Assembly: GCA_963740355.1 (NCBI GenBank)
Contig: CAVUDW010000002.1
Span: forward strand, 1,152,001-1,216,000
Source of the DNA: an uncultured Gemmatimonadaceae bacterium
GTDB lineage: Bacteria; Gemmatimonadota; Gemmatimonadetes; Gemmatimonadales; Gemmatimonadaceae
Reading direction: 5' to 3'
Length of the DNA: 64,000 nt
The notes below the pieces were generated by a model. It did no database searches. It was not told the origin of the DNA and saw only the letters and a program-made list of their open reading frames with translations. The position numbers and the translations under genes were made by a program. This document shows positions 6,401 through 56,353 of the stretch, one piece after another. How positions within the stretch are numbered: the stretch's first letter is position 1; the number at the start of each line of letters is the position of its first letter.

Positions 6401-6406
6401 CGGGCG

Positions 6407-7363: not shown

Positions 7364-8037
7364 GCGCTTGCCTTCGCTCGGCGCGCCTTCAGGCCTCGAT
7401 CGAGCAGCATCAGCCGGATGCCGTGGATCACGAAGGCGGCAATCGCTGTTGGGATGGCCCAGACGGCGAGCTCGGTTGGCAGGACGCGAATGCCAGCCTG
7501 CTCGAGCACCCCCTTGATGAGCAGGATCGAGCCGATTGCGATGAAGATGTCCTCGCCGAAGAAGACGCCGATGTTGTCGACCGCGGCGGCGTTGGCGCGA
7601 ATCACCTGCCGCGTGGCGTCATCGAGGTCGGGGACATCGCGATCGGCGGCTGCCTCTGCCATCGGCGCGATCAACGGGCGCACCATCTGCGGGTGCCCAC
7701 CGAGCGACACCAGACCGAGCGCCGCGGTGGCTTGCCGAAGCGCGAGGTATGCCAGCAGCACACGTCCAGTCGTTGCACCCTGCATGCGCATCACGACGTC
7801 GCGGGCGCGCTCCTTCAGTCCTGAACGCTCAAGCAGCCCGATCACTGGCAAGACGAGCCACACGATGGCGACGTAGCGACTTTCGGTGAAGGCGTGCCCG
7901 AGCGTCGTGAGTGTGGTCACGAACCCAAGGCCGCCCGCGAGCCCGGTGACGATGCCGGCGCAGGTGACGACCAGCAACGGATTGAGGCGGAACGCAAAAC
8001 CCAGCACAACAACGAGCAGCCCACTGAGGACGAGCAT
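7360..8037 (-). CDS. DUF969 membrane protein (5-oxoproline transporter subunit)
   Basis: LNPLLVV, LERSGL, LGGHPQMVRPLIAPM, DNIGVFFGED. Confidence 0.85.
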   Translation of the reverse strand: MLVLSGLLVVVLGFAFRLNPLLVVTCAGIVTGLAGGLGFVTTLTTLGHAFTESRYVAIVWLVLPVIGLLERSGLKERARDVVMRMQGATTGRVLLAYLALRQATAALGLVSLGGHPQMVRPLIAPMAEAAADRDVPDLDDATRQVIRANAAAVDNIGVFFGEDIFIAIGSILLIKGVLEQAGIRVLPTELAVWAIPTAIAAFVIHGIRLMLLDRGLKARRAKASA

Positions 8038-8085
8038 CGGCGGTGGTCGAGAGGGACGGTCGAAGGAAACAGTCGAAGGAAGCGG

Positions 8086-8859
8086 TCAGGCGGGCGGGGA
8101 CGCACCGAGCGGCAACACACTGACGCCCGCCACATGCAGCGCGGTGCGGATGCGCTCTGCAAACTGCGGCGCGCCCGGCGCGTCGCCATGGATGCAGATG
8201 GTCTCGGCCACAACTGCGACCTCAGTGCCATCGATGGCGCGGACGCGCTGTTCCCGCACCATGCGCACGGCGCGCTGCACTGCAACCTCGACGTCAGTGA
8301 CCATCGCGGACGGCTGGTGTCGCGGTACGAGCGTGCCATCGCCCTGGTAGTTGCGATCGGCAAATACTTCGCTCGATGTGCGCAGACCGAGTCGTGCGCC
8401 GGCGGCGATCAGCGCGCTGCCGGACAGTCCGACCAGCACCAGCGCCGCGTCGACGTCGAACACGGCGCGTGCAATGGCATCGGCGAGGTCGCGACGCACC
8501 GCAGCCATGTTGTAGAGCGCGCCGTGCGGCTTGACATGCTGCATCGACACACCGGCAGCAAAGGCCGTCGCCTGCAATGCACCGACCTGGTACACCACCA
8601 TGTCATACACTTCCTGCACCGTGACGGCGAGTTCGCGACGGCCGAACCCGACAAGGTCAGGGAGGCCGGGATGCGCCCCGACCGCCACGCGATGCGCGGC
8701 AGCCGCGTGCACGGTGGCGCGCATCACCGATGGATCACCGCCGTGAAATCCGCAGGCGATGTTGACGGACGACACATACGGCAACACGGCGGAGTCGTTG
8801 CCGATGGTCCAGGCACCGAAGCTTTCGCCCATGTCGCAATTCAGGTCAACGCGTGTCAT
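8086..8859 (-). CDS. pxpA: 5-oxoprolinase subunit A (LamB/YcsF family)
   Basis: DLNCDMGESFG, NIACGFHGGDP, HVKPHGALYN, EVFADR, ICIHGD; ATG at 8859. Confidence 0.93.
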   Translation of the reverse strand: MTRVDLNCDMGESFGAWTIGNDSAVLPYVSSVNIACGFHGGDPSVMRATVHAAAAHRVAVGAHPGLPDLVGFGRRELAVTVQEVYDMVVYQVGALQATAFAAGVSMQHVKPHGALYNMAAVRRDLADAIARAVFDVDAALVLVGLSGSALIAAGARLGLRTSSEVFADRNYQGDGTLVPRHQPSAMVTDVEVAVQRAVRMVREQRVRAIDGTEVAVVAETICIHGDAPGAPQFAERIRTALHVAGVSVLPLGASPPA

Positions 8860-9850
8860 CGGAGCCCGGTGGAAAGCGGAGGTGAATGGCGCGGCGCGCG
8901 GTTGCCAGGTCATGCTCGCGGCGCCGCAGCAGGTCGTGCGCATCATCGAGTGCGATCGGTGCGAACGAGACGTGATCACCCGGACGCAACTGCGCGAGCA
9001 GCGGCAGGTCGACGGAGATCACATCGCCGAGGCGCGGATAGCCACCGGTGGTCTGCCGATCGGCCATCAGCACGATCAACGCGCCGCCGGGCGGGAGTTG
9101 CATGGTACCGGCGGTCACGCCAGACGACAGCATTTCGCGGGGAGTCGAAAGGGAAAGCAGGTGGCCAGTGAGGCGGAATCCCATCCGGTCCGATTCCGGT
9201 GCGATGCGAAAGGTGTCACCGAGCAGCAGGGCACGCGACGCGTCCGTCATTTCCTCGAATTCAGGCCCGTGGATGAAACGCACCGTGGGTGCGGCCGCGT
9301 ACGACGGCAGCAGCGCCGGGCTGGCACTCCAGTTTGCGACGGCGCGACCGCGCTGCTCGAGGTGGCGGGCGATGCGCTCCCCGAGGGCTGTCGGCTCACC
9401 GACCGGCAGTACATCGTTGCGACGCAGCGCGCGCCCCTCCCATCCCCCAAACGCGGCCCGCAACGACGTTCCACGCCCATCGAGCACCACGCGCACGTCG
9501 AGCCCACCGGCAAAGGCAATCGTGGTGCGGCATCCGGTGTGAATCACCAACACCTGCCCGGTGTGCGCGAGGAACGGCCGCCACGCAGGAATCGGCGTCC
9601 CGTCGAGCGAGGCCGTGATGTCGCGTCCCGCGAGCGCCACCAGCGCCGCCGCATCGAACTGCAGTGCCACGCCGCCGAGCGTGCACTCGAGCGCAGCGGC
9701 GTCGTCGTCATTTCCCACCAGCAGGTTCGCTATCCGATGTGCACAGGGGTCCATCGCGCCGCCAACCGGTACGCCGATGTGCTGCCATCCCGGTCGTCCC
9801 AGGTCCTGCACGGTGGCCTGAATCCCGGGTTGACGCACCGTGATGCTCAC
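8846..9850 (-). CDS. pxpC: 5-oxoprolinase subunit C (AHS2 domain)
   Basis: TVQDLGR, GGAMD, ANLLVGN, SDRMG, DRQTTGGYP; GTG start at 9850 overlaps pxpB stop. Confidence 0.9.
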   Translation of the reverse strand: MSITVRQPGIQATVQDLGRPGWQHIGVPVGGAMDPCAHRIANLLVGNDDDAAALECTLGGVALQFDAAALVALAGRDITASLDGTPIPAWRPFLAHTGQVLVIHTGCRTTIAFAGGLDVRVVLDGRGTSLRAAFGGWEGRALRRNDVLPVGEPTALGERIARHLEQRGRAVANWSASPALLPSYAAAPTVRFIHGPEFEEMTDASRALLLGDTFRIAPESDRMGFRLTGHLLSLSTPREMLSSGVTAGTMQLPPGGALIVLMADRQTTGGYPRLGDVISVDLPLLAQLRPGDHVSFAPIALDDAHDLLRRREHDLATARRAIHLRFPPGSDDTR

Positions 9851-10533
9851 GCGCGTTCCTCGGCGGCGTCGTACGCCTCGCGCGAGATGGCAACGAAGCG
9901 CACACGATCGCCCGCCTGCAGCAGCGCGGGTGGGGTGCGCGTGGGTGCAAACAGTGCCAGCGGTGTGCGGCCGATGAGATGCCAACCACCAGGTGAGCTG
10001 CACGGGTAGATGCCGGTGCTGCTGCCGCCAATGCCAACACTGCCCACCGGCACCTTGGTGCGCGGCGACGAACGCCGTGGCGTATGCAGCGCGGGATCGA
10101 GGCCATCGAGATATGGGAAGCCCGGCAGGAATCCGATCATTGCGACGGTGTAGTCGCCGGCGGTGTGCGCGGCCACGATCGCGTCGCTGGTCGTGGCATG
10201 CGCCGCCGCCACATCCTCGAGATCGGGGCCGAACTCTCCGCCGTAACAAACCGGAATCACCACTGGCGTCCGCGGGGCGTCCTCCGTGATCTCGAGCGTG
10301 TCGAGGGTCTGCCCGAGATAGTGCTCGAGCGTCCTGAAATCGGTGTGGACGGGATCGTAGTGGAGTGTGAGGGCCCGAATGGCCGGGACGAGGCCACTCA
10401 CGCCCACCGGGCGCTCGGTTCGGAGTCGCGCCGTGAGGCTCCGGATGAGCGCGCGGGCCGGCGCGCCGTCGGCGTCGGGGAACTCGATCGTGAGTGCGCG
10501 ATCGCCGAGAGGGACAACGGTGCGGGGGCGCAT
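9847..10533 (-). CDS. pxpB: 5-oxoprolinase subunit B (AHS1 domain)
   Basis: PLGDRAL, IPVCYGGEFGPDL, GFLPGFPYL, GIYP..SPGGW.LIGRT; ATG at 10533. Confidence 0.92.
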   Translation of the reverse strand: MRPRTVVPLGDRALTIEFPDADGAPARALIRSLTARLRTERPVGVSGLVPAIRALTLHYDPVHTDFRTLEHYLGQTLDTLEITEDAPRTPVVIPVCYGGEFGPDLEDVAAAHATTSDAIVAAHTAGDYTVAMIGFLPGFPYLDGLDPALHTPRRSSPRTKVPVGSVGIGGSSTGIYPCSSPGGWHLIGRTPLALFAPTRTPPALLQAGDRVRFVAISREAYDAAEERA

Positions 10534-10625
10534 GGTCGGCACAGTATGCCCGTGCGGCACGGCGGGCGCGAGGCACCACGTCGATACATCAGGGCTGTCT
10601 GCCACGTGCATGATTGCCTGACGGG

Positions 10626-10637
10626 GTAACCGGTTAC
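10626..10637. promoter_or_regulatory. Perfect 12-bp palindrome GTAACCGGTTAC, candidate operator between divergent pxpB and pcs
   Basis: Seen directly; resembles LacI-family CG-centred operators. Confidence 0.45.
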
Positions 10638-10778
10638 TCCTCTGTTGTAACGCGAGGACTGGCAGTTTCGTCCTTGCCAGCACTGCTGGCACCCGACTTG
10701 TTTTGTCTGTTCACGTCGGGGTAGCCGCCGTGGTCGAATGTGCTGCACATCTTCCCGCCACCGCCCGGAGTAGCCGGC

Positions 10779-13700
10779 ATGGCCGTACTGGCAGATCCAT
10801 CCCTCGTCGATTCGACGGGGCCCCGCGTCGTGTCGCCACCTCAGGCGCGCCGCAATCCGATCCGGTCGCGCACCGACTGGGAGCGCATGCGGGCCGAGTG
10901 CCTCGCCGATCCGGGTCGCTTCCACGGCGAAATTGCGAAGCGTGAGCTGCACTGGTTCCATCCCGAGGTGGGACCCAACGGAGCCTGGATCACGTGGGAT
11001 GACGCCGCAAAGCAGTGGACCGGATGGGACGCTGCCACGGGTTTGGCCGTCGAGCCGGGCCTTGCCGCCGACTTCACACCGTGGAGCCGTGCCTTCAATG
11101 GCGACGCGGCCCCATTCTGGCGCTGGTTCGAAGGGGCGCTGACGAATGCGGGCTTCAACGAAGTGGATCGCCATGTGCTGGCGGGCCATGGGGATGAAGC
11201 GGCCCTGATCTTCGAAGGCGACCGGTGGGACATGTCGGTGGACAATGGTCGCGGTGGTCCGGTGGACTGTTATCCGGTCTCCCGTCGCACGCTGATGCTG
11301 GAAGCGGCCAAGTGTTCGATCGCGCTCGGGGCACTCGGTGTGAAGCGTGGCGATCGCATCGCGCTCAACATGCCGAACATTCCGGCGCAGCTGTTCTGGA
11401 CGGAAGGGGCAAAGCGAATCGGCGTGGTGTACACGCCAGTGTTCGGCGGATTCAGCGACAAGACGTTGAGCGATCGCATTCATGATGCGGGCGCGCGTGT
11501 GGTGATCACCTGCGACGGCGGCTATCGCAACGCGCAGATCGTCCCGTTCAAGACCGCATACACCGATCCAGCACTCGACGACTATGTCCCGCTGACATCG
11601 GCGCGCGGTGTCGTGGCCGAGACGCTGCAGGCGCTGCAACTGACGCCCGCCCGCATTGCGACATTGCTCGAGGCGATCGACGAGACGCTGGCCGGTGAGA
11701 TCACGGTGCAGCGCAGCGACGTGATGCGCGGAGTGGGTCGCGCCCTGCAGAAGTTGTCGGATGCGCATGACCTCCCCGCAAGCGAGGCGAGCCGGGTGCG
11801 CACCGCGATCGCCGCGGCGCTCGTCTCAACACCGCCACGCGTCGATGCGGTGGTGGTCGTGAAGCACAGTGGCATCGATGACATCGTGTGGCGCGAGGAG
11901 CGCGACCGTTGGAGCCACACGCTCACCGATGCGGCGCTGGAATCGATCCTCACAGCGGCGCGTGGCATCGGCATCGTGGTCGCATCGGAAGCCGAGTTGC
12001 TGGCATTGCCGGACGCGGAGTTCGTGCGCGCGATCTGGAGCGCGAGCGCGCCCGCGCCGCTGGATGCCGAGTTCCCACTGTTCTTCATCTACACCTCAGG
12101 CTCCACAGGCAAGCCGAAGGGCGTGGTCCATGTGCACGGCGGATACACCTCGGGCATCGCCTACTCGATGCGCGTGGCGTTCGACGCTGCGCCGGGCGAC
12201 GTGATGTACGTGGTGGCCGACCCGGGTTGGATCACAGGCCAGAGCTACATGATCTCGGCGGCACTCACGACCCGCGTCACGAGTGTGTTCACCGAAGGCG
12301 CGCCTGTCTTTCCGCACGCCGGTCGCTTCGCCTCGATCATCGAACGACACAAGGTCAGCATCTTCAAGGCCGGTGCGACGTTCCTCAAGAGCATCATGCA
12401 GGACCACCAGAACGCGGAGGACGTGCGTCGCTACGACCTGTCCACACTCCGCGTGTGCACGTTCTGCGCAGAACCCGTGTCGCCGGTGGTGCAGCAATTC
12501 GGCATGGACCTGCTGGCACCGTGGTACATCAATTCGTACTGGGCCACTGAGCACGGCGGCATCGCGTGGACGCACTTCTACGGGAACGGCGACTTCCCGC
12601 TGCGTGCCGATGCGCATACCTATGCGCTGCCCTGGATCGTGGGCGATGTGTGGACGGAGGCCTCCGTCGATGACGTGAATCCCGAGGCGCCACTGGCGTT
12701 GTATCGGCGGGCTGGTGACACCGGTACCGCGTTCCGGCGCGCCGCGCTGGACGAGAAGGGCGAGATCGTGATCTCGGCGCCGTATCCGTACCTGGCGCGG
12801 ACGGTGTGGGGCGACAGCGAACACTTCACCGTGGATGGAGCTCGCGTCTCACCGGCATGGCAGGGAGACATCGCGCGCTGGACCAGCACCTACTGGTCGC
12901 GCTGGAAAGGCGCGTGGGCCTATACGCAGGGCGACTTCGCGGTGCGGTACGCCGACGGGTCGTTCTCGCTGCATGGTCGCAGCGATGACGTGATCAACGT
13001 CTCGGGCCATCGCATGGGGACCGAGGAGATCGAGGGGGCGATCCTCCGGCACCGGCAGCTGGATCCCGACTCACCGGTGGGCAACGTGATCGTCGTGGGT
13101 GCGCCACATCGCGAGAAGGGATTGACGCCGCTTGCGTTCGTGAAGCCCAGCGCCGGCCGCACACTCACGCAGGACGACAAGCGCCGCCTGACGGAGTTGG
13201 TGCGCTTCGAGAAGGGTGCTGTCGCGGTACCGAGCGATTTCATCGAGGTCACCCAGTTCCCCGAGACGCGCAGTGGCAAGTACGTCCGCCGCATGGTGCG
13301 CGCCTTGGTGGAAGGCACCGATGTGGGCGACACCAGCACCCTGCGCAACCCGGAGTCGATTGGCGAGTTGCAGAAGGCGATCGCGGAATGGCAGCGACGC
13401 CAGAAGCTCTCGGAAGAGCAGCAGCTCTTCGAGCGCTACCGGTACTTCCGCGTGCAGTACAACACGCTCGCGCGCGGCGCCAAGGTGGCGACGGTCTACG
13501 TCACGAATCCGCCAGTGAACGCCCTCAACGAGCGAGCGCTGGACGAACTGAACATCGTGGTCGATCACCTCGCGCGGCGCGACGACGTGAAGGCCGTGGT
13601 CTTCACCGGCGACGGCACGTCATCGTTCGTGGCCGGTGCCGACATCCGGCAGTTCCTCGATGAGATACACACGCTGGAACAGGCGCGGGTGCTGCCGAAC

Positions 13701-16310
13701 AATGCGCAACTGGCGTTCCGCCGCATCGAGCGGATGGGCAAGCCGTGCATCGCGGCCATCCAGGGCGTGGCCCTCGGCGGCGGCATGGAGTTCGCGCTCG
13801 CCTGTCACTATCGCGTGGCGGAGCCCTACTCACAATTCGGTCAGCCGGAGATTCGCCTGCGGCTGCTGCCTGGCTACGGTGGCACCCAACGCTTGCCGCG
13901 GCTCCTCGCCGACCGTCGCGGGGCCGCGGGTGTGCGCGATGCGCTCGAGATGCTGCTCAGTGGTCGCAACGTGGACGGCGAACAGGCGCAGGAAATCGGA
14001 CTGGTGGACGAACTCAGTTCGGCCAGCAGCGATGTCCTGTCGTGCGCTCACGCCCGTGTGCGCGAGTGGTATCGCACCGGCGACGCGAGCGTGCTGGGGA
14101 AGGCACATCTCGGGCGGCTGGCCCAGGCGGATGCGTGGAATGAGCCAGCCACGATCGATCTCGATACGGTGCTTGCAGACAAGCATCTGCTGAACGTGCT
14201 CACGCAACTGACATGGGCGGAGCGTGCGATGGCCGGCGCACGTGTGCTCGACGCCGTGCGCACGGGATGGGCACAAGGGTTGGATGCAGGCCTGATCCGC
14301 GAAGCCGAGCTGTTCGCCGAAGGGGTCGTGGACCCGAACGGCGGCAAGGCCGGCATTCGGCAGTTCCTCGACAAGCAGAGTGCACCGTTGCCGATCAAGC
14401 GCGACGGCGTGCGACTGGTGAGCGAACAACAGGAATTCATCAAGTCGCGCCTGGCGGAGGGTGAGCTCCTCCGTGTCGGCGCGCCTTTCTATCCGGGCGT
14501 GACACAGATCCCGTCGTGGCAGTTTGCGTTCGGTGTGCCCAAGGACCAGAAGACGGGCGCCCCGCGGTTCGGTCCGCCGAACGTCGCCGAGCAGGAACTG
14601 ATCGTGCCAGTGGGCGAGCCGGGCGCGATGGAGGCGCTGGTCTACGTGCTGGCCTCGGAGGTGAACTTCAACGACATCTGGGCCATCACCGGTATCCCGG
14701 TGTCAAGCTTCGACAATCACGACCTCGATGTGCAGGTGACGGGGTCAGGCGGGCTCGGATTGGTCGCCGCACTTGGCAGTGATGCGAAGAGTGAAGGGCG
14801 ATTGAAGGTCGGCGACCTGGTGGCGATCTACAGTGGCCAGAGTGACCTGCTGTCACCGTTGGCGGCGCGTGATCCGATGTACGCCGACTTCGCCATCCAG
14901 GGATACGAGACGGACTTCGGCAGCCACTCACAGTTCATCGTGACACAGGCGCCGCAGCTGAACCCGATCCCGGGCGACCTGACTCTCGAGCAGGCTGGTT
15001 CGTACATCCTCAACCTCGGCACCATCGTGCGTGCCTTGTTCACGACGCTCAGGATCGAGGCCGGAAAGACGATGTTCGTCGAAGGTTCGGCCACCGGCAC
15101 CGGGCTCGAGGCGCTCAAGACCGCACTCAAAACCGGGGTGCAGGTGACGGGCCTCGTCTCGAGCAGTGAGCGTGCCGCTGCCGTGCGCGCGCTCGGCGCC
15201 ACCGCGACGCTGGATCGCAAGGATGCCCGCTTCGCCGACCTCTTCACCGTGGTACCGGAGGACGAGGCGGGGACGCGCGCCTGGCTCGCCGCGGGCGAAG
15301 TGCTGTGCGCCGAGTATCGCGCGCAGAATAACGGCCGCCTCGCAGACTACGTGGTGTCGCATGCTGGCGAGACGGCCTTTCCGCGGTCGTTCCAGCTGCT
15401 CGAACAGGGCGGCGAGTTGACGTTCTATGGTGCGTCGAGCGGCTATCACTTCACCTTCGTCGGCAAGTCGGGCACCTCGTCACCGGAAGCCATGCTGCGA
15501 CGTGCGGCGCTCCGCGCCGGCGAGGCCGTGCTGGTGTTCTATGGGCCACGCACCCGTGAACTCGTCGACCGCGTTGGACTCGAGATGATCGAAGCCGTGC
15601 GCGCGCTGCGTGGACGGTGTGTGGTGGCCACGACCACCGATGGTCAGCGGGAGTTCCTGCAGTCGCTGGGCTTCGAGGACGCCATTGCCGGTGTGGTGTC
15701 GCTGGAGGAGATCGGCCGGCGGAGCTCCGAGTTCGAGTGGCCGCTCACCATGCCTCGACTCCCCGATGCCAAGCAGCACACGGAGCGCTTCCGCCAATCG
15801 GTGCGTGATTTCCAGGATCACACGCTGAAGCCATTCGGTGCGGCGGTGGGCAAGCTGCTCCGCTCGCCGGACAACCCTCGCGGCGCACCGGACCTGATCA
15901 TGGAGCGCGCAGGGCATGATGCGCTCGGTGTGTCGACGTCGCTGGTCAAGCCGTTCACCGGCCGGGTGGTCTACTGCGAGGAAATGGAGGGCAAGCGGTA
16001 CGCGTTCTATGCACCGCAGGTGTGGACGCGGCAACGCAAGATTCTCATGCCCACCGCATCGATCCTTGGCACGCACCTCACGAATGCGTTCGAGGTGACG
16101 CGCATGAACGACATGATCTCGGCGGGGCTGCTCGACATCACGCCACCGACCGTGGTGCCGTGGCACGACTTGCCGACGGCCCACCAGGCGATGTGGGAGA
16201 ACAAGCACGCTGGCGCCAACTATCTCGTGAACCATGCGCTCCCCGCGCTTGGCTTGCGCAGCAAGGACGCGTTGCTGGAAGCGTGGGCGGCTACGGAGCA
16301 GGAATCATGA
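10779..16310 (+). CDS. pcs: Trifunctional propionyl-CoA synthase (3-hydroxypropionyl-CoA synthetase + dehydratase + acrylyl-CoA reductase), about 1843 aa
   Basis: AMP-binding domain (YTSGSTGKPKG, YWATEHG, GRSDDVINVSGHR, PETRSGK), crotonase domain (FVAGADI, ALGGGME, QPEIRLRLLPGYGGTQRL) and CCR-like MDR domain (SEVNFND, IQGYET, GTH); GGAG RBS before ATG 10779. Confidence 0.9.
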   Translation: MAVLADPSLVDSTGPRVVSPPQARRNPIRSRTDWERMRAECLADPGRFHGEIAKRELHWFHPEVGPNGAWITWDDAAKQWTGWDAATGLAVEPGLAADFTPWSRAFNGDAAPFWRWFEGALTNAGFNEVDRHVLAGHGDEAALIFEGDRWDMSVDNGRGGPVDCYPVSRRTLMLEAAKCSIALGALGVKRGDRIALNMPNIPAQLFWTEGAKRIGVVYTPVFGGFSDKTLSDRIHDAGARVVITCDGGYRNAQIVPFKTAYTDPALDDYVPLTSARGVVAETLQALQLTPARIATLLEAIDETLAGEITVQRSDVMRGVGRALQKLSDAHDLPASEASRVRTAIAAALVSTPPRVDAVVVVKHSGIDDIVWREERDRWSHTLTDAALESILTAARGIGIVVASEAELLALPDAEFVRAIWSASAPAPLDAEFPLFFIYTSGSTGKPKGVVHVHGGYTSGIAYSMRVAFDAAPGDVMYVVADPGWITGQSYMISAALTTRVTSVFTEGAPVFPHAGRFASIIERHKVSIFKAGATFLKSIMQDHQNAEDVRRYDLSTLRVCTFCAEPVSPVVQQFGMDLLAPWYINSYWATEHGGIAWTHFYGNGDFPLRADAHTYALPWIVGDVWTEASVDDVNPEAPLALYRRAGDTGTAFRRAALDEKGEIVISAPYPYLARTVWGDSEHFTVDGARVSPAWQGDIARWTSTYWSRWKGAWAYTQGDFAVRYADGSFSLHGRSDDVINVSGHRMGTEEIEGAILRHRQLDPDSPVGNVIVVGAPHREKGLTPLAFVKPSAGRTLTQDDKRRLTELVRFEKGAVAVPSDFIEVTQFPETRSGKYVRRMVRALVEGTDVGDTSTLRNPESIGELQKAIAEWQRRQKLSEEQQLFERYRYFRVQYNTLARGAKVATVYVTNPPVNALNERALDELNIVVDHLARRDDVKAVVFTGDGTSSFVAGADIRQFLDEIHTLEQARVLPNNAQLAFRRIERMGKPCIAAIQGVALGGGMEFALACHYRVAEPYSQFGQPEIRLRLLPGYGGTQRLPRLLADRRGAAGVRDALEMLLSGRNVDGEQAQEIGLVDELSSASSDVLSCAHARVREWYRTGDASVLGKAHLGRLAQADAWNEPATIDLDTVLADKHLLNVLTQLTWAERAMAGARVLDAVRTGWAQGLDAGLIREAELFAEGVVDPNGGKAGIRQFLDKQSAPLPIKRDGVRLVSEQQEFIKSRLAEGELLRVGAPFYPGVTQIPSWQFAFGVPKDQKTGAPRFGPPNVAEQELIVPVGEPGAMEALVYVLASEVNFNDIWAITGIPVSSFDNHDLDVQVTGSGGLGLVAALGSDAKSEGRLKVGDLVAIYSGQSDLLSPLAARDPMYADFAIQGYETDFGSHSQFIVTQAPQLNPIPGDLTLEQAGSYILNLGTIVRALFTTLRIEAGKTMFVEGSATGTGLEALKTALKTGVQVTGLVSSSERAAAVRALGATATLDRKDARFADLFTVVPEDEAGTRAWLAAGEVLCAEYRAQNNGRLADYVVSHAGETAFPRSFQLLEQGGELTFYGASSGYHFTFVGKSGTSSPEAMLRRAALRAGEAVLVFYGPRTRELVDRVGLEMIEAVRALRGRCVVATTTDGQREFLQSLGFEDAIAGVVSLEEIGRRSSEFEWPLTMPRLPDAKQHTERFRQSVRDFQDHTLKPFGAAVGKLLRSPDNPRGAPDLIMERAGHDALGVSTSLVKPFTGRVVYCEEMEGKRYAFYAPQVWTRQRKILMPTASILGTHLTNAFEVTRMNDMISAGLLDITPPTVVPWHDLPTAHQAMWENKHAGANYLVNHALPALGLRSKDALLEAWAATEQES

Positions 16311-19300
16311 GCGCACAGCCTGAGGGAACGTTGACACAGCCAGCACTTGGAGAGGCAATGGAGGCGACGGGTCGCGAGGGGCGTCTGAGCGGGAAGGTGG
16401 CACTGGTGACGGGTGCCGCCGGCAACCTTGGCGGCCACATCACTCGCCACTACCTGCGCGAAGGCGCCACGGTGATCCTCACTGGTCGCGAGCGCAATCG
16501 CGTCGAGGCGGCGCGACTCGACGCCATCCAGCAGACTGGTGTTCCCGATGACCGCGCCACCATCGTGACGCTCGACGGCGCCGATCCGGTGTCGGTGCGC
16601 GCCGCCTTCGCTGAGGCGATCGCGACGCATGGGCGCATCGACATCGTGGTGAACAACGCTGGCTCGGCCGGACCGCGACAGCCGTTGCGCAACGTGCCGA
16701 TCACGCGAGACGAGCTGGATGCACTGCGCGCCGCGGGATCGACCGACAGCGAGACGGTGGGTGATGCCATGCGCAGCATTCTCGGCGTCGCCTGGCATGT
16801 GGCCAACGCCGCCGCGCGGGTGATGCAGCCGGGCGGATCGGTGATCAACATCTCGACGATCTTCTCGCGCACCGAGTACTACGCGCGCTCTCCATACGTC
16901 GTCCCGAAGGCAGCGCTGAACGCGCTCTCACGTCAGCTGTCGTTCGAGCTGGGTGAGCGTGGCATTCGCGTAAACACGATCTATCCGGGGCCGATCCGCT
17001 CCGAGCGCATCCAGACCGTGTTTGCCGCGATGGACAAGATGCGCGGCGACGAACCGGGCACCACGGCGACGAGCTTCACCGGGTTGATGTCGCTGAAGCG
17101 GGCTGGCGAGGATCCCGCGGCGGGGCGCACCTTCCCGACACCGAAGGATGTTGCGAACACCTGTGTCTTCCTTGGCAGCGACGAGTCGGCCGCGTTCAAT
17201 GGGCACGACTTCGAGGTGACGCACGGCATGTGGGTGCGCAAGGAGAGCCGCTCGGAGTTCGTCTCGCGGCCGACGATGCGCACCGTGGATGGCAGTGGAC
17301 TCTCGGTGCTGGTCGCGTGCGGCGATGCCCTCGATGACGGCCTCGCGGTGGCGCGGATGCAGGCGGAGGTGGGTGCGGCCGTGCTGCTCGGCGTGCCGCG
17401 GGATGCGGACGTGGTGGCGATTCAGTCACAGCTCGAGTCGCGGGGCCATGACGCACAGATTCGCGTCGCCCGTTTCGACCGCAGTCAGCCGGCCATCATG
17501 GAGCAGGCGCTCAGCGACGGCCCAGCCGGCGGCGGCCCGATTCATGGTGCGATCATCCTGCCGGCCTTCGGTCCTGAGCGTTTTCGCGGGCTGGTGTCAG
17601 AAGCGCCCGACGACGACATCGAGACCTTCATCGACAACGAGCTCACCGGCGCAATCGCGCTGGCGCGCACGCTGAGCCGGTACTGGAGCGCTCGCACCGA
17701 CCTGCCGCGCAATCCGCGGTTCGTGATGATGTCGAACGGCCACGACGGCGCGTACAACTCGTACGCCGACATGATTCGTGCGGCACTCGAGTCGCTCACG
17801 CGTGTGTGGCGCGACGAGACCAAGGTCGATGTGAAGCATGGGCGGCGGCAGTGGATCGAGTGGGGCAACCAGATCATCCGCTACGGCAACACCGAACCGG
17901 AGAACCGTCGCTTTGCGGCCGGGCAGGCGGCGCGCCTCATCTACACCGATCGACGCATCCCGCAGGTGAACCTGTACATGCCGAAGTCGATCGTGAAGGC
18001 GACAGGCGCCAAGCGTTCGATGGTCGGATTCATGGAAAACATCACCGGCCTCCATCTCGGCAAGGTGGCACTGATCACCGGTGGATCGGCTGGCATTGGC
18101 GGACAGGTGGCGCGATTGCTGGCGATGGGCGGCGCCCGCGTGATGCTGGTGGCACGTCGCGAAAGCGAGCTGGAAGTGATGCGCTCACAGATCGTCGGTG
18201 AACTGGAAGACGTCGGCTACAGCGGCGCGGATCGCCGCGTTCTGACGATGGCTGGTGTGGACGTGGGTGATGTCTCGACGTTGCGGCGCGCCGTGGAAGG
18301 CACGTTGGCGGCCTTCGGTCGCATCGACTACCTGATCAACAACGCCGGTGTGTCAGGGGCAGAAGAGATGGTGGTCGACATGAGCCTCGATGCGTGGCGC
18401 TATACGCTCGACGCAAACCTCGTGTCGAATTATGCCCTGCTGAAGGAAGTGGTGCCGGTGATGCGGAAGCAGGGCAGCGGCTACATCCTCAACGTGTCGA
18501 GTTACTTCGGTGGCGAGAAGCACCTCGCCGTGGCGTATCCCAATCGTGCCGATTACGCAGTGTCGAAGGCCGGCCAGCGGGCGCTGGTCGAGACGCTCGC
18601 CCGTCACCTCGGGCCGGAGATCCAGATCAATGCGATCGCGCCAGGGCCTGTCGATGGTGATCGGTTGCGCGGCCTGGGCGGCAAGCCCGGGTTGTTCATG
18701 CGACGCGGCCGGCTGATCCTCGAGAACAAGCGCCTGAACGCGATCCACGCTGCGGTGGTGAAGACGGTGCGACGCGGGTTGCGCGTGGAGGCCGTGCTGG
18801 AGCGGCTGGCGGCGAACGATGTGCCTCTGCTCGTGGCGGATGCGGACGTGCCGCGCGAACTGCGCGACCTCGCGCTCCAGTGCCAGTCGGAAGGCGCTGA
18901 GGGATCGACGTGGGGCGCGTATCTCATGACGCCATTGATTGCAGCGCACCTCGTCGATCGACTGGAGCTGGGGGGCATCTTTCTCGACGCCGGTGACTGG
19001 ATTGCACCCACCGGCGACAGCTGGCTGCGCCGGACGCCGCCTGAGGAGACGCCGTTCCTCCCTGCGGCGATGATCACACGGGAAGCGGAGAAGGTGAATC
19101 GCGGTGTGATGTCGCTGCTGCACTTGCGGCGCATGCCAACCGAGGCGGAGGTCGCGCTGGCGACCGTGTTCTTCCTTGCCGATCGCGCCGTCAGCGGCGA
19201 GACCTTCATGCCGTCAGGTGGCTTGAACCTCGAGCGCTCGATCACGGATCGCGAACTGTTCGGCAGCGCGAAGCGTGAACGACTGGATCAGTTGCGCGGG

Positions 19301-20011
19301 CGCACGGTGTGGTTGATCGGTGAGCACCTGGCGCCGCATCTCGCCGAGGCGGTGCGACAGCTGGCGGAGCTCTGCCAGGTGGGGAAGGTGGTGCTGCTGA
19401 CGCGGACGATGGCAGGCGCGGATGGCATCGAGGCGCTGGTGCCGCGCGAGCTGCGACGGGTGCTGGTGAAGATCCCGTGCGGTGACGATATCGAGAGCGG
19501 CATGAATGCGGCGCTGCAGCAGGCGGGCAAGCCGACGACCGTGATCTCGACGCCGTTTGCGCCGTTGCCACCGGCGCTGTTCGGCACCGATGGTGAAGTG
19601 CTGGACGCCGCGACGTTCCGTGAGCTGGTGGAGGTGAACCTGACGCATCACTTCCGCGTGGCCCGCAAGGCCTCGTTGATCGATGACGCGCAGCTGGTGC
19701 TGGTGTCGCCAGATGTGCCGGCCGGCGGGCATCTCGAGACGTTCTCGCTCGCGAACTTCGTGAAGACTACGATGCATGCGTTGACCGCGACGCTGGCGGT
19801 CGAGAATGAGCGCCTGGTGAACGATGTGCCGGTGAACCAGATCAACCTCACCCGTCGCGTGCGGAGTGAAGAGCCGCGCGACGAGGAGGAGACGCTGGAA
19901 GAGGTTCGACGTTTTGCCCGCGCGGTCCTGCTGGCCGGTGCGCCGCTGCCGGATGCAGAGGATTCGCGGTACCGATCACGGATTTATCGCGGGATGGCGA
20001 TCACCGTGTGA
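16307..20011 (+). CDS. mcr: Bifunctional malonyl-CoA reductase (malonyl-CoA to 3-hydroxypropionate), about 1234 aa
   Basis: Tandem SDR domains: TGAAGNLG/NNAG/YYARSPYVVPK and TGGSAGIG/NNAG/YPNRADYAVSK; C-terminus RIYRGMAITV resembles Chloroflexus MCR; ATGA overlap with pcs. Confidence 0.9.
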   Translation: MSAQPEGTLTQPALGEAMEATGREGRLSGKVALVTGAAGNLGGHITRHYLREGATVILTGRERNRVEAARLDAIQQTGVPDDRATIVTLDGADPVSVRAAFAEAIATHGRIDIVVNNAGSAGPRQPLRNVPITRDELDALRAAGSTDSETVGDAMRSILGVAWHVANAAARVMQPGGSVINISTIFSRTEYYARSPYVVPKAALNALSRQLSFELGERGIRVNTIYPGPIRSERIQTVFAAMDKMRGDEPGTTATSFTGLMSLKRAGEDPAAGRTFPTPKDVANTCVFLGSDESAAFNGHDFEVTHGMWVRKESRSEFVSRPTMRTVDGSGLSVLVACGDALDDGLAVARMQAEVGAAVLLGVPRDADVVAIQSQLESRGHDAQIRVARFDRSQPAIMEQALSDGPAGGGPIHGAIILPAFGPERFRGLVSEAPDDDIETFIDNELTGAIALARTLSRYWSARTDLPRNPRFVMMSNGHDGAYNSYADMIRAALESLTRVWRDETKVDVKHGRRQWIEWGNQIIRYGNTEPENRRFAAGQAARLIYTDRRIPQVNLYMPKSIVKATGAKRSMVGFMENITGLHLGKVALITGGSAGIGGQVARLLAMGGARVMLVARRESELEVMRSQIVGELEDVGYSGADRRVLTMAGVDVGDVSTLRRAVEGTLAAFGRIDYLINNAGVSGAEEMVVDMSLDAWRYTLDANLVSNYALLKEVVPVMRKQGSGYILNVSSYFGGEKHLAVAYPNRADYAVSKAGQRALVETLARHLGPEIQINAIAPGPVDGDRLRGLGGKPGLFMRRGRLILENKRLNAIHAAVVKTVRRGLRVEAVLERLAANDVPLLVADADVPRELRDLALQCQSEGAEGSTWGAYLMTPLIAAHLVDRLELGGIFLDAGDWIAPTGDSWLRRTPPEETPFLPAAMITREAEKVNRGVMSLLHLRRMPTEAEVALATVFFLADRAVSGETFMPSGGLNLERSITDRELFGSAKRERLDQLRGRTVWLIGEHLAPHLAEAVRQLAELCQVGKVVLLTRTMAGADGIEALVPRELRRVLVKIPCGDDIESGMNAALQQAGKPTTVISTPFAPLPPALFGTDGEVLDAATFRELVEVNLTHHFRVARKASLIDDAQLVLVSPDVPAGGHLETFSLANFVKTTMHALTATLAVENERLVNDVPVNQINLTRRVRSEEPRDEEETLEEVRRFARAVLLAGAPLPDAEDSRYRSRIYRGMAITV

Positions 20012-20143: not shown

Positions 20144-21009
20144 ATGTCTGAATTCGTCGACGACCTGCTCGAGCTGCTCGATCTCGAGCCGCTCGAGGTG
20201 AACATCTATCGCGGGCAGAACCGCGACATCGGCACGGGTCGGGTCTTCGGTGGACAGGTGTTTGCGCAGGCCCTGGTCGCGGCGCGACGGACGGTGGAAG
20301 GCGAGCGCGAGGCGCACTCGGTGCATGGGTACTTCATCCTGCCGGGCGATCTGAAGGCACCGATCGTCTACTTCGTCGATCGGCTGCGCGACGGCAACAG
20401 CTTCACCACGCGGCGCGTGACGGCGATCCAGCATGGGCAGGCGATCTTCAACCTGTCGGTCTCGTTCCAGATCGCGGAGACGGGATTCGAGCATCAGGAT
20501 GCGATGGCGACGGTGCCGGGGCCGGAGAAGCTGACCTCGGAGCTGGAGTTGATCCGCGACATGGCGGCACGGATTCCCGAGCCGCTGCGACCCGGTGCTG
20601 ACGCAGGAACGACCGATCGACTTCCGGCCGGTGGATCCGGTCGATCCCTTCGATCCCAAGCCGCGTGCGCCGGTGCGCCATGTCTGGTTCCGGTCACATG
20701 GCCCGCTGCCTGACGATCCGCTCCTCCATCAGGCGGTGCTGGCGTATGCCTCCGATCATGGCCTGCTGGGCACGGCGCTGTTGCCGCATGGGCTCTCGCT
20801 TCCGCACGCCGGGCATGCAGCTCGCGTCGCTCGACCACTCGCTCTGGATGCACCGGCCCTTTCGGGTGGACGAGTGGCTGCTGTACTCGATGGACAGCCC
20901 GATCACTGCGGGGGCGCGTGGTTTCGTGCGCGGCAGCATCTACGCGCGTGACGGCACACTGGTGGCATCGGTGGCGCAGGAAGGGTTGATGCGGGTGCGA
21001 CCGGTGTAG
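20144..21009 (+). CDS. tesB: Acyl-CoA thioesterase II, split by two apparent +1 insertions (about 20592 and 20799)
   Basis: VFGGQV, HSVHGYF, LRDGNSF, AYASD, ASLDHSLW and VAQEG lie across three frames; removing 2 nt gives 287 aa. Confidence 0.85.
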
Positions 21010-56165: not shown

Positions 56166-56353
56166 GGGGAGGGCAGAAGGTGAGGATTCGCTGCACGGCA
56201 GCGATTGGTGTTACAACTCCGCAGTTGGCACCGAGGTCCACGCGACCGACGATCTGATGCGACGCCAGCGGTGTACGACCGCGCATCGCACGATCTGCAT
56301 CGACATCCCGTGATGCTTCGACGCGCGCGGCTCCGACAATCAACTGCAAACGA

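What the first reader, a model, noticed from the sequence alone, without database searches (positions are those of the whole stretch)
10779..20011. Coupled pcs-mcr: both signature enzymes of the 3-hydroxypropionate route
Seen: a full three-domain PCS and a full two-active-site MCR with ATGA overlap. Known: these enzymes convert malonyl-CoA to 3-hydroxypropionate to propionyl-CoA in the Chloroflexus 3-HP bi-cycle, and also occur in bacteria with only a partial pathway. Inference: the surrounding genes look heterotrophic, so this may support mixotrophic CO2 co-assimilation, acetate or 3-HP assimilation, or NADPH disposal. The remaining bi-cycle genes are not in this window, so autotrophy is not shown.
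Basis: partly seen in the sequence, partly recalled or inferred. Interest (0 to 1): 0.75.

Follow-up and report, generated by a model that had tools for sequence, protein, structure and literature searches.

The report
3-HP bi-cycle in phototrophic Gemmatimonadota
The two overlapping genes are real and intact, and the same genome also carries every other gene of the Chloroflexus-type 3-hydroxypropionate CO2-fixation cycle plus a bacteriochlorophyll photosynthesis cluster, so a light-harvesting bacterium of a phylum regarded as heterotrophic may be able to build biomass from bicarbonate.

Summary
Observation confirmed. pcs (10779-16310, 1843 aa) and mcr (16307-20011, 1234 aa) overlap by ATGA. 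Both match solved enzymes over their full length, and all 13 checked MCR catalytic residues are kept.

The genome's nearest named relatives are Gemmatimonadaceae MAGs. It also holds:
- a photosynthesis gene cluster about 0.3 Mb away (pufLMC, puhA, bch genes, acsF);
- on another contig, meh / smtA-smtB-mct-mcl-mch, where Mct, Mcl and Mch match solved Chloroflexus-type enzymes at 600-680 bits;
- a carboxylase set, methylmalonyl-CoA epimerase and mutase, and a [NiFe]-hydrogenase locus.

RuBisCO, isocitrate lyase and a second Ccr-like reductase were not found.

In 301 genomes of the family, MCR occurs in 21 of 40 with reaction-centre genes against 5 of 261 without. All 20 genomes with Mct also have MCR. 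Some Burkholderiales carry the same nine genes as one contiguous cluster.

Surveys from 2022 and 2026 already list 3-HP bi-cycle genes in Gemmatimonadota, so this is a new member of a known kind. No expression or physiology data exist. Mixotrophic, light-assisted bicarbonate and organic-acid assimilation is the most likely role; full autotrophy is possible but unshown.

The parts
10779..16310 (+). pcs, trifunctional propionyl-CoA synthase (1843 aa, P0001)
   Evidence: 2704 bits to PDB 6eqo over residues 27-1841. Relatives align from residue 1.
11280..13280 (+). PCS acyl-CoA synthetase (ligase) part
   Evidence: Pfam AMP-binding 168-605 and AMP-binding_C 765-834. The YTSGSTGKPKG motif starts at residue 438.
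13479..14090 (+). PCS enoyl-CoA hydratase (3-HP-CoA dehydratase) part
   Evidence: Pfam ECH_1 901-1104.
14565..16214 (+). PCS enoyl-CoA reductase part (Ccr-like)
   Evidence: TIGR01751 over residues 1263-1560. ADH_zinc_N 1440-1555 and ADH_zinc_N_2 1705-1812.
16307..16310 (+). ATGA: mcr start codon overlapping the pcs stop codon
   Evidence: The same -4 junction was called in 13 of 15 same-genus-type loci that include the junction, and all 15 have ATGA or TTGA at the pcs stop.
16307..20011 (+). mcr, bifunctional malonyl-CoA reductase (1234 aa, P0002)
   Evidence: 1170 bits to 8hi4 over residues 26-1234.
16412..17230 (+). MCR SDR1 (malonate-semialdehyde reductase site)
   Evidence: adh_short_C2 36-308. 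T184, Y191, R194, Y197 and K201 are conserved.
18062..18661 (+). MCR SDR3 (malonyl-CoA reductase, CoA-acylating site)
   Evidence: adh_short 586-785. S732, Y744, R747, Y750 and K754 are conserved, and R786, L796 and R800 lie just beyond.
20144..21009 (+). tesB-like acyl-CoA thioesterase II, conserved neighbour, read in two frames here (apparent frameshift between about 20594 and 20791)
   Evidence: only positions 1-149 of 286 of the TesB model match the first frame; the C-terminal part lies in another frame, and the spacing is 197 nt against 196 nt in L004. The probable ATG is at 20144.
8086..10692 (-). pxpA/pxpC/pxpB-like 5-oxoprolinase genes, divergent upstream neighbours (context, not part of the pathway)
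   Evidence: Pfam LamB_YcsF, CT_A_B and CT_C_D. Found upstream of pcs in the 7 same-genus-type loci (L010, L011, L013, L014, L017, L018 and, no hit in L019) where a hit was returned: 6 loci in all.

Best explanation
pcs-mcr is a translationally coupled two-gene unit. MCR reduces malonyl-CoA with 2 NADPH to 3-hydroxypropionate. PCS activates, dehydrates and reduces that to propionyl-CoA.

In this genome the unit is one of three separate loci that together encode a complete Chloroflexus-type 3-hydroxypropionate bi-cycle:
- ACC-type and PCC-type carboxylases, methylmalonyl-CoA epimerase and mutase with MeaB;
- SmtAB, Mcl, Mch, Mct and Meh.

The organism is an aerobic bacteriochlorophyll-a phototroph whose nearest named relatives are Gemmatimonadaceae. 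Its photosynthesis cluster includes acsF.

Most likely use: light-generated ATP and reductant drive co-assimilation of bicarbonate with acetate, propionate, 3-HP or glyoxylate (mixotrophy). RuBisCO, isocitrate lyase and a second Ccr-like reductase were not found, so the bi-cycle is the only recognisable route here for net C2 assimilation or CO2 fixation.

Shown: gene identities, completeness of the set, co-occurrence with reaction-centre genes, and cluster architecture shared with Burkholderiales. Inferred: activity, expression and physiological role.
For: Identity of PCS and MCR.

Salvage cluster on C3 (locus L003):
- meh candidate at 6550-7452 (-). Its homologues at 64-84% identity are named 3-methylfumaryl-CoA hydratase by JGI, and it is 65-67% identical to Chloroflexales proteins.
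- smtA at 7557-8816 and smtB at 8813-10042. Proteins named succinyl-CoA:(S)-malate CoA-transferase subunit B are 82-87% identical to the latter.
- mct at 10011-11309: TIGR04253 full length at 709 bits, and 683 bits to PDB 8apq, '2-methylfumaryl-CoA isomerase'.
- mcl at 11361-12410: 673 and 667 bits to 6kin and 4l7z, against 212 bits to 4l9y. It is the only HpcH hit in the genome.
- mch at 12407-13471: 602 bits to 4e3e and 453 bits to 8hgn, 'beta-methylmalyl-CoA dehydratase'.

Carboxylation and rearrangement:
- carboxyltransferase plus biotin carboxylase on C4, a second carboxyltransferase beside split mcm and meaB, and accA- and accD-like hits;
- epimerase at 125.5 bits, above the cut-off of 114.95.

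Phototrophy: pufL, pufM, pufC, puhA, bchXY, bchLNB, bchHDM, bchFGP, acsF and ppsR lie in C2:1436001-1496000.

Not found, in a genome estimated 94.5% complete: RuBisCO large subunit, isocitrate lyase, and a further ECR/Ccr-like gene at E<1e-25.

Distribution in 301 genomes of the family, compared by handle:
- MCR in 26, Photo_RC in 40, Mct in 20;
- MCR in 21 of 40 RC+ genomes against 5 of 261 RC- genomes;
- by genus, 7 of 15 RC+ against 1 of 62 RC-;
- all 20 Mct+ genomes are MCR+.

Architecture: the same order, meh(-) smtA smtB mct mcl mch, follows pcs-mcr directly in Burkholderiales loci L028 and L049, at 65-86% identity. It also occurs in other Gemmatimonadaceae, in L087 and L088.

Possible inorganic donor: a [NiFe]-hydrogenase large subunit with hypB, hypD, hypF and a maturation protease.
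Against: - No expression or activity data: no RNA run holds the stretch.
- The papers read describe cultured phototrophic Gemmatimonadota as photoheterotrophs. PMC11316326 states that there is no physiological confirmation of autotrophy in the phylum.
- The 2026 survey preprint reports that 3-HPB-positive Pseudomonadota and Gemmatimonadota showed no enrichment for photoautotrophy.
- Mct scores 709 bits, just under NCBIfam's cut-off of 725. No genome searched reached it: the best was 718.6.
- SmtA, SmtB and Meh rest on homology to proteins that were annotated, not assayed.
- The substrate specificity of the carboxylases is not known.
- pcs-mcr, the salvage cluster and the photosynthesis cluster are three separate loci, so nothing shows common regulation. 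No sigma-70-like promoter and no terminator count above chance was found.
- SoxB and form I CoxL were not found, so the hydrogenase is the only candidate inorganic donor seen.
- 5 of 26 MCR+ genomes lack RC hits and 6 lack Mct. These are MAGs 74-95% complete.
- Related genomes are not independent, so the Fisher values overstate the association.
Confidence: 0.6

Rival explanations
1. Heterotrophic or partial use only. pcs-mcr and the salvage genes serve to assimilate or detoxify 3-hydroxypropionate, acrylate, propionate, acetate or glyoxylate, or to dump excess NADPH in the light. There is no meaningful net CO2 fixation.
For: - In 46 of 50 proteobacterial pcs-mcr carriers searched, no strong Mct was found. 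The two-gene unit therefore functions without the second cycle in many light-harvesting heterotrophs, and 46 of those 50 genomes have pufLM.
- The window around the genes is rich in peptidases, glycoside hydrolases and TonB receptors.
- The phylum's cultured phototrophs are described as photoheterotrophs.
Against: - In this family mcr comes with mct in 20 of 26 genomes, and mct was never found without mcr.
- The complete set, including Chloroflexus-type Mcl, Mch, Mct and Meh, is present here.
- Isocitrate lyase and Ccr were not found. Even heterotrophic C2 assimilation would therefore have to run through the carboxylating route, which fixes bicarbonate.
Confidence: 0.2
2. Full photo(litho)autotrophy. 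The organism can grow on CO2/bicarbonate alone, using the oxygen-tolerant bi-cycle, the type-2 reaction centre and an inorganic donor such as H2.
For: - A complete gene set together with a photosynthesis cluster.
- A [NiFe]-hydrogenase with maturation genes.
- No RuBisCO, so this would be the only fixation route.
- Garritano et al. 2022 predicted autotrophy for two Gemmatimonadales MAGs carrying all the genes.
Against: - No autotrophic Gemmatimonadota has been shown physiologically.
- acsF and oxygen-dependent hemF point to an aerobic phototroph of the kind that, from my own knowledge, uses light as an auxiliary energy source.
- SoxB and form I CoxL were not found.
- The hydrogenase class was not determined.
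Confidence: 0.17
3. Artefact or relic. The genes were mis-binned from a proteobacterium, or they are decaying and silent.
For: - The tesB gene next to mcr is read in two frames.
- An IS3-family transposase sits beside the salvage cluster.
- MCR of this genus is the sister group of proteobacterial MCR in the tree.
Against: - pcs-mcr lies on a 2.55-Mb contig that also carries the photosynthesis cluster, and the salvage cluster lies on a 2.58-Mb contig.
- G+C is even across the window, 0.63-0.68.
- The flanks (tesB, penicillin amidase, addB; pxp genes upstream) recur in MAGs labelled Gemmatimonadaceae or Gemmatimonadales.
- 7 of 8 other genomes of the genus carry MCR at 82-89% identity with open frames.
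- Both reading frames are intact with catalytic residues kept.
- Estimated contamination is 1.81%.
Confidence: 0.03

Closest known systems
3-hydroxypropionate bi-cycle of Chloroflexus/Roseiflexus (Chloroflexota)
   Same: Same enzyme set and the same enzyme types.
- Bifunctional MCR: 1170 bits to 8hi4.
- Chloroflexus-type Mcl at 667-673 bits, Mct at 678-683 bits, Mch at 602 bits.
- Meh and SmtB are 65-67% and 82-86% identical to Chloroflexales proteins.
- A type-2 reaction centre is present in the same organism.
   Different: - Different phylum.
- Aerobic-type pigment synthesis, with acsF and oxygen-dependent hemF.
- pcs and mcr are fused into one overlapping unit. That they lie apart in Chloroflexus is recalled, not tested.
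- In the trees, MCR and Meh fall in a clade with proteobacterial sequences, outside the Chloroflexus-type sequences.
- No physiology is known.
pcs-mcr unit of aerobic anoxygenic phototrophic Proteobacteria (PCS of PDB 6eqo; MCR of PDB 6k8s; sphingomonads, Burkholderiales)
   Same: - pcs lies directly upstream of mcr in 68 of 77 loci. The other 9 have mcr at a contig edge.
- PCS scores 2704 bits to 6eqo. PCS and MCR are 60-70% identical to the proteobacterial proteins.
- 46 of the 50 carriers searched have pufLM.
- Four Burkholderiales carry the whole set, and in L028 and L049 it forms one contiguous nine-gene cluster in the same gene order.
   Different: - Most proteobacterial carriers searched (46 of 50) lack a strong Mct, which means a partial pathway.
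- Here the set is complete but split over two contigs.
- The junction is usually an intergenic gap in Proteobacteria, and ATGA in this genus.
- The organism names for 6eqo (Erythrobacter sp. NAP1) and 6k8s (Porphyrobacter dokdonensis) are recalled. The latter is also named in PMC10470521.
Gemmatimonadales MAGs with all 3-HP bi-cycle genes (Garritano et al. 2022, PMC9802188); 3-HPB markers in freshwater Gemmatimonadota (bioRxiv 10.64898/2026.09.02.748891); mcr in a glacier Gemmatimonas MAG (PMC13184969)
   Same: Same phylum and same pathway call, and a glyoxylate-salvage operon arrangement 'similar to reference organisms' (passages read).
   Different: These surveys do not tie the pathway to the photosynthesis cluster. 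Garritano et al. suggest inorganic donors, and the preprint reports no enrichment for photoautotrophy.

Here the link to reaction-centre genes, the two MCR lineages within the family and the shared cluster architecture with Burkholderiales are shown on samples.

The supplements of these papers were not read, so I cannot say whether this genome or its genus is among their MAGs.

Membership tests
Trifunctional propionyl-CoA synthase (PCS) | Ligase, enoyl-CoA hydratase and enoyl-CoA reductase parts in one chain of about 1800 aa | tested here: met
   Pfam AMP-binding/AMP-binding_C, ECH_1, and ADH_zinc_N/ADH_zinc_N_2, in that order. The protein is 1843 aa.
Trifunctional propionyl-CoA synthase (PCS) | Full-length similarity to a structurally characterised PCS | tested here: met
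   2704 bits to PDB 6eqo, query residues 27-1841 against chain residues 22-1844.
Trifunctional propionyl-CoA synthase (PCS) | 3-HP + ATP + CoA + NADPH gives propionyl-CoA (activity) | not testable with these tools
   Needs an enzyme assay.
Bifunctional malonyl-CoA reductase (MCR, Chloroflexus type) | Chain of about 1220 aa with N-terminal (alcohol-forming) and C-terminal (aldehyde-forming) SDR modules | tested here: met
   Two SDR regions. Full-length matches to 8hi4 and 8hjw, and half-length matches to the N and C fragments 6k8v and 6k8s.
Bifunctional malonyl-CoA reductase (MCR, Chloroflexus type) | Catalytic and substrate residues of both sites (RfxMCR T165/Y172/R175/Y178/K182; S731/Y743/R746/Y749/K753/R785/L795/R799; R1164) | tested here: met
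   13 of the 13 residues visible in the alignment are conserved. R1164 lies beyond the printed alignment and was not checked.
Bifunctional malonyl-CoA reductase (MCR, Chloroflexus type) | [quoted passage not shown] | not testable with these tools
   Needs an enzyme assay.
Complete 3-HP bi-cycle | Mesaconyl-CoA C1-C4 CoA transferase (Mct), the most pathway-specific enzyme | tested here: inconclusive
   TIGR04253 matches positions 1-403 of 403 at 709 bits, under the curated cut-off of 725. Against that, 683 bits full length to PDB 8apq, '2-methylfumaryl-CoA isomerase'. I read it as Mct.
Complete 3-HP bi-cycle | Chloroflexus-type (trifunctional) malyl-CoA lyase Mcl | tested here: met
   673 bits to 6kin and 667 bits to 4l7z over the full length, against 212 bits to 4l9y. 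No NCBIfam equivalog reached its cut-off. That 4l7z is the Chloroflexus enzyme is recalled.
Complete 3-HP bi-cycle | Mesaconyl-C1-CoA hydratase Mch | tested here: met
   PF19315 MC_hydratase at 51 bits, above its cut-off of 26.5. 602 bits to 4e3e, and 453 bits to 8hgn, 'beta-methylmalyl-CoA dehydratase'.
Complete 3-HP bi-cycle | Mesaconyl-C4-CoA hydratase Meh | tested here: met
   A double hot-dog protein of 285-300 aa. Many of the 120 listed homologues are named 3-methylfumaryl-CoA hydratase by JGI, and it is 65-67% identical to Chloroflexales proteins. Its position beside smtA is conserved across phyla. This rests on annotation, not assay.
Complete 3-HP bi-cycle | Succinyl-CoA:(S)-malate CoA transferase SmtAB | tested here: met
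   Two adjacent family-III CoA transferases. Proteins 82-87% identical to the second are named succinyl-CoA:(S)-malate CoA-transferase subunit B by JGI or UniRef. The first (SmtA) is assigned by position only.
Complete 3-HP bi-cycle | Acetyl-CoA and propionyl-CoA carboxylases, methylmalonyl-CoA epimerase and mutase | tested here: met
   - Four Carboxyl_trans hits.
- Two biotin carboxylases.
- Split MCM with MeaB, and a second MCM.
- Epimerase above its cut-off.

Which carboxylase takes which substrate was not tested.
Complete 3-HP bi-cycle | Net autotrophic CO2 fixation through the cycle | not testable with these tools
   Needs labelling or growth experiments.
Bacteriochlorophyll-based (type-2 reaction centre) phototroph | pufL, pufM and puhA with BChl synthesis genes in one cluster | tested here: met
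   - pufL at 413 bits, pufM at 525, pufC at 340 and puhA at 216, all above their cut-offs.
- bchX, Y, L, N, B (TIGR model), H, D, M, F, G, P; acsF; ppsR.
- Photo_RC hits.

The most novel reading that the evidence does not exclude
Some aerobic, bacteriochlorophyll-containing Gemmatimonadaceae are facultative photo(litho)autotrophs or strong mixotrophs that fix bicarbonate through an oxygen-tolerant 3-HP bi-cycle. That would be the first use of this pathway for carbon fixation outside Chloroflexota.

The nine pathway-specific genes would behave as a transferable module that accompanies type-2 reaction-centre phototrophy across phyla. They are contiguous in some Burkholderiales and split in Gemmatimonadaceae. 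MCR of Gemmatimonadaceae is not monophyletic, so either transfer happened more than once or it ran from Gemmatimonadota into Proteobacteria.
Probability: 0.25. Interest if true: 0.85.

Novelty: new member of a known kind. Interest (0 to 1): 0.6.

Why it matters
Aerobic anoxygenic phototrophs and phototrophic Gemmatimonadota are treated as photoheterotrophs in carbon budgets, and the 3-HP bi-cycle is treated as a Chloroflexota speciality.

This is a near-complete genome (5 contigs, 94.5% complete) in which the full pathway, a photosynthesis cluster and a hydrogenase sit together with no RuBisCO found. In its family, mcr and mct track the reaction-centre genes. Together these turn a survey-level hint into a concrete, testable case.

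A protein 88% identical to SmtB is on record from the cultured species Gemmatimonas groenlandica. The description of that species never mentions the pathway. A laboratory test may therefore already be possible.

Tried and rejected
- **Expression.** The look-up of sequencing runs listed no RNA holder. The five DNA holders share 0.05-0.34 of the sampled words. I did not lay reads, so nothing can be said on expression or habitat.
- **Promoters and terminators.** No sigma-70-like sites were found. Four terminator-like sites compare with 3.9 expected by chance, so the scan is not informative.
- **Failed genome searches.** Two family-wide searches failed on the server and were repeated. Part of the genome quota was charged for them.
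- **Representative search.** The representatives P0127 and P0128 turned out not to be the solved Chloroflexus/Roseiflexus proteins. P0126 is the Chloroflexus-type representative.
- **Handles limit.** I dropped 11 loci, mostly on short contigs: L024, L026, L029, L030, L036, L051, L055, L058, L068, L072, L077.
- **Rejected assignments.**
  - A + strand ORF at L003:6346-7515 is spurious: Arg-rich and with no family. The real gene is on the - strand.
  - The SoxB hits at 91 bits against a cut-off of 550, and the CoxL hits at 37 bits or less against 991, are not these enzymes.
- **Earlier notes.** This scan has none on this genome.
- **Papers not held.** Zarzycki & Fuchs 2011 and Shih et al. 2017 are not in the library. 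What I say of them is recalled or taken from reference lists.
- **Trees.**
  - The MCR tree is a quick LG+G4 search on 50 rows: 43 of the 78 full-length loci, plus the window and 6 representatives. The other 35 loci, mostly sphingomonads, were left out to save time.
  - The outgroup rows are long branches.
  - The AU test group was named after the tree had been seen.
  - The direction of transfer is therefore left open.

Full report
**1.

Two long + strand frames fill 10740-20011. The first, read from the ATG at 10779, gives 1843 residues. The second, from the ATG at 16307, gives 1234 residues. The DNA at the junction reads GAA TCA TGA with ATG at 16307-16309, so stop and start share ATGA.

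PCS:
- Pfam finds an acyl-CoA synthetase, an enoyl-CoA hydratase and a zinc-type reductase module in order. NCBIfam adds a crotonyl-CoA carboxylase/reductase-like match for the last part.
- It aligns over residues 27-1841 with the chain of PDB 6eqo at 2704 bits.

MCR:
- It has two SDR halves. It aligns over its full length with 8hi4 (1170 bits) and 8hjw (1118 bits), and half by half with the fragment structures 6k8v and 6k8s.
- I used the residues that the RfxMCR paper gives as catalytic or substrate-binding (PMC10470521, passages read) and the printed alignment to 8hi4. All 13 visible positions are conserved: T184, Y191, R194, Y197, K201, and S732, Y744, R747, Y750, K754, R786, L796, R800.

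Both genes are single copy.

**2. What organism this is**

The window is G000:C2:1152001-1216000, in a 5.45-Mb, 65% G+C genome of five contigs. Completeness is estimated at 94.5% and contamination at 1.8%.

The nearest MCR homologues, at 79-91% identity, lie in 16 loci from MAGs labelled Gemmatimonadaceae, Gemmatimonadales or Gemmatimonadota. Those loci share the flanks:
- tesB, a penicillin amidase and addB downstream;
- pxp genes upstream, in the six loci where a hit was returned.

The next tier, at 60-66% identity, is proteobacterial: sphingomonads, Burkholderiales, Caulobacterales and Parvularculaceae.

**3. The rest of the pathway is in the genome**

The single HpcH/HpaI hit of the genome, three of its four family-III CoA-transferase hits and a double MaoC hit all fall within C3:605629-611303. 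In locus L003 the order is as follows.

| Gene | L003 coordinates | Evidence |
|---|---|---|
| IS3-family transposase | 5573-6286 | |
| meh candidate | 6550-7452 (-) | divergent hot-dog hydratase |
| smtA | 7557-8816 | family-III CoA transferase |
| smtB | 8813-10042 | family-III CoA transferase |
| mct | 10011-11309 | TIGR04253 over 1-403 of 403, 709 bits, cut-off 725 |
| mcl | 11361-12410 | HpcH/HpaI |
| mch | 12407-13471 | MaoC and MC_hydratase |
| unknown ORF, 177 aa | 13476-14009 | no family |

Against solved structures:
- Mct scores 683 bits to 8apq, '2-methylfumaryl-CoA isomerase'.
- Mcl scores 673 and 667 bits to 6kin and 4l7z, but only 212 bits to the Rhodobacter-type malyl-CoA lyase 4l9y.
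- Mch scores 602 bits to 4e3e and 453 bits to 8hgn, 'beta-methylmalyl-CoA dehydratase'.

By annotation of homologues:
- Many homologues of the meh candidate are named 3-methylfumaryl-CoA hydratase by JGI. They include Chloroflexales proteins at 65-67% identity.
- Proteins 82-87% identical to smtB carry the name succinyl-CoA:(S)-malate CoA-transferase subunit B.

Elsewhere in the genome:
- a carboxyltransferase with a biotin carboxylase on C4;
- a second carboxyltransferase next to a split methylmalonyl-CoA mutase and MeaB;
- a further mutase, accA- and accD-like hits and a second biotin carboxylase;
- a methylmalonyl-CoA epimerase above its cut-off.

Not found: RuBisCO large subunit, isocitrate lyase, and any further Ccr-like reductase.

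**4. It is a phototroph**

pufL and pufM lie at C2:1468473-1470131, about 0.3 Mb from pcs-mcr on the same contig. The 60 kb around them hold:
- bchP, bchG, ppsR, bchF, bchN, bchB, bchH, bchL, bchM;
- acsF, puhA, a phytoene-synthase-like gene, pufC, pufM, pufL;
- bchY, bchX and bchD;
- next to them hemA, hemE, an oxygen-dependent hemF and a protoporphyrinogen oxidase.

acsF and hemF point to pigment synthesis in air.

A [NiFe]-hydrogenase large subunit with a maturation protease and hypB, hypD and hypF is on C3. SoxB and form I CoxL were not found.

**5. Distribution**

In 301 genomes drawn from the family, G000 included:

| Marker | Genomes with a hit |
|---|---|
| MCR | 26 |
| Photo_RC | 40 |
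| Mct (E <= 1e-100) | 20 |
| RuBisCO large subunit | 25 |

Comparing handles:
- 21 genomes have both MCR and RC, 5 have MCR only, 19 have RC only and 256 have neither.
- Of the 5 with MCR only, four belong to a genus in which another member is RC+. All five are MAGs 79-94% complete.
- By genus, MCR occurs in 7 of 15 RC+ genera and in 1 of 62 RC- genera.
- Fisher values are 6e-17 by genome and 2e-5 by genus. These overstate the case, because related genomes are not independent.
- All 20 Mct+ genomes are MCR+. Six MCR+ genomes, 74-95% complete, lack Mct.
- In the window's genus, 7 of 8 other genomes have MCR and Mct, 8 of 8 have RC, and 0 of 8 have RuBisCO.
- RuBisCO hits of 400 bits or more occur in 10 genomes, four of them RC+. 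One of those (G151) also has MCR and Mct.

In a sample of the phylum, MCR was found in 7 of 88 genomes of this family and in 0 of 292 genomes of 11 other families.

- 46 have pufLM;
- only 4, all Burkholderiales, have a strong Mct of 690 bits or more.

**6. Architecture and history**

pcs lies directly upstream of mcr in 68 of 77 loci. The other 9 begin with mcr at a contig edge.

The ATGA or TTGA junction was called in 13 of the 15 same-genus-type loci that include it, and the motif is present at the pcs stop in all 15. Most proteobacterial loci have a gap of 1-160 nt instead.

The salvage genes sit in different places:
- In Burkholderiales loci L028 and L049 they follow mcr directly, in the same order and orientation as on C3 here, at 65-86% identity. 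In L050 they precede pcs.
- In six other Gemmatimonadaceae genomes pcs-mcr is adjacent, at 57-60% (MCR) and 64-66% (PCS) identity to ours.
- In four of those six the salvage cluster was also fetched, and it lies at a different place in the genome.

Trees:
- A quick maximum-likelihood tree of MCR puts the Chloroflexus-type representative (P0126) outside a fully supported clade of Gemmatimonadaceae plus Proteobacteria.
- Inside that clade, the window's genus (support 100) is sister to the Proteobacteria (support 85). The other Gemmatimonadaceae branch earlier.
- An AU test rejects a single Gemmatimonadaceae clade at p = 3.7e-5. The group was named after the tree had been seen, and the outgroups are long branches.
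- A careful tree of Meh likewise separates a Gemmatimonadaceae plus Burkholderiaceae clade (support 99/98) from Chloroflexales sequences, and is unresolved inside it.

I conclude that horizontal transfer between Proteobacteria and Gemmatimonadaceae happened, probably more than once. I leave the direction open.

**7. Mechanism**

Established biochemistry of these enzymes, from my own knowledge and from PMC10470521 for MCR:
- acetyl-CoA is carboxylated to malonyl-CoA;
- MCR reduces it in two NADPH-dependent steps, first at the C-terminal site and then at the N-terminal site, to 3-HP;
- PCS converts 3-HP to propionyl-CoA;
- carboxylation, epimerisation and mutase give succinyl-CoA;
- SmtAB and Mcl release glyoxylate and regenerate acetyl-CoA;
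- Mcl, Mch, Mct and Meh, then Mcl again, turn glyoxylate plus propionyl-CoA into pyruvate and acetyl-CoA.

The genes for every step are shown here. Activity, expression and flux are inferred.

Neither a glyoxylate shunt nor an ethylmalonyl-CoA route is recognisable, so even growth on acetate would have to use this carboxylating route. I therefore rank light-assisted mixotrophic co-assimilation first, at 0.6. The alternatives are purely heterotrophic or partial use at 0.2, full autotrophy at 0.17, and artefact or relic at 0.03.

**8. What is known already**

Papers that report the pathway in the phylum (passages read):
- Garritano et al. 2022 (PMC9802188) reported all bi-cycle genes in two Gemmatimonadales MAGs 'for the first time', and in Burkholderiaceae MAGs.
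- A 2026 preprint (10.64898/2026.09.02.748891) found mcr plus mcl in freshwater Pseudomonadota and Gemmatimonadota, with no enrichment for photoautotrophy.
- A 2026 glacier study found mcr in a Gemmatimonas MAG (PMC13184969).

Term searches within papers that turned up no mention:
- The description of G. groenlandica (PMC7844134) has no occurrence of hydroxypropionate, malonyl, carbon fixation or autotroph.
- The phylum-wide ecogenomics paper (PMC10581226), the phylum review (PMC8779627) and the 2025 light-harvesting paper (PMC12817894) do not mention the pathway.
- The marine survey found no complete pathway in its MAGs (PMC11316326).

My seven text searches found no paper that analyses the link between the photosynthesis cluster and the bi-cycle in this phylum. 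Supplements were not read. Subscription papers such as Zarzycki & Fuchs 2011 and Shih et al. 2017 were not available.

That agrees.

**9. Verdict**

The module itself is known, and its presence in Gemmatimonadota has been listed in surveys, so the class is 'new member of a known kind'.

The added value lies in three points:
- a complete pathway in a near-complete phototroph genome with no RuBisCO found;
- the pathway tracks reaction-centre genes within the family;
- it shares its cluster architecture with Burkholderiales.

Together these make the question 'is the 3-HP bi-cycle used by aerobic phototrophs outside Chloroflexota?' directly testable. Interest 0.6.

Noticed in passing
window 20144-21009 (+); L088:2177-2977: The tesB-like thioesterase after mcr is read in two frames here: the spacing between its halves is 197 nt against 196 nt in L004. 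This could be a frameshift or an assembly indel. In L004 the two halves lie in one frame. A tesB homologue (71-79% identity) also lies about 3 kb from the salvage cluster in another Gemmatimonadaceae genome (G154), which hints at a functional tie to the pathway.
   Followed up: partly
L003:5573-6286 (G000:C3:603573-604286): An IS3-family transposase (198 bits) lies directly beside the meh/smtAB/mct/mcl/mch cluster.
   Followed up: no
L003:13476-14009 (P0124): A 177-aa ORF directly after mch has no Pfam or NCBIfam match even at E<=1, and no counterpart in the Burkholderiales loci.
   Followed up: partly
L097 (G000:C3:1688001-1704000): A [NiFe]-hydrogenase locus: large subunit at 8036-9661, a likely small subunit at 7048-8103, a maturation protease, hypF, hypB and hypD, and a two-component system between them. 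The hydrogenase class was not determined.
   Followed up: partly
That would be two candidate fixation routes in one phototroph.
   Followed up: no
L028:4515-20622; L049; L050: In Burkholderiales MAGs all nine pathway-specific genes (pcs, mcr, meh, smtA, smtB, mct, mcl, mch) form one contiguous cluster of about 16 kb.
   Followed up: partly
window 30026-32248 (+): A 740-aa protein with two WYL domains, WCX and a PafC-type HTH lies directly after addB/addA (23581-29945).
   Followed up: no
window 5390-10692 (-): DUF2891, DUF979, DUF969 and pxpA/C/B-like genes form a block divergent from pcs. Further upstream lie gnd-like, zwf and pgl genes (2334-5376, +), a possible NADPH source.
   Followed up: no
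window 53418-57094: An MprF-like lysyl-phosphatidylglycerol synthase (915 aa, - strand) lies next to a VirJ-like protein.
   Followed up: no
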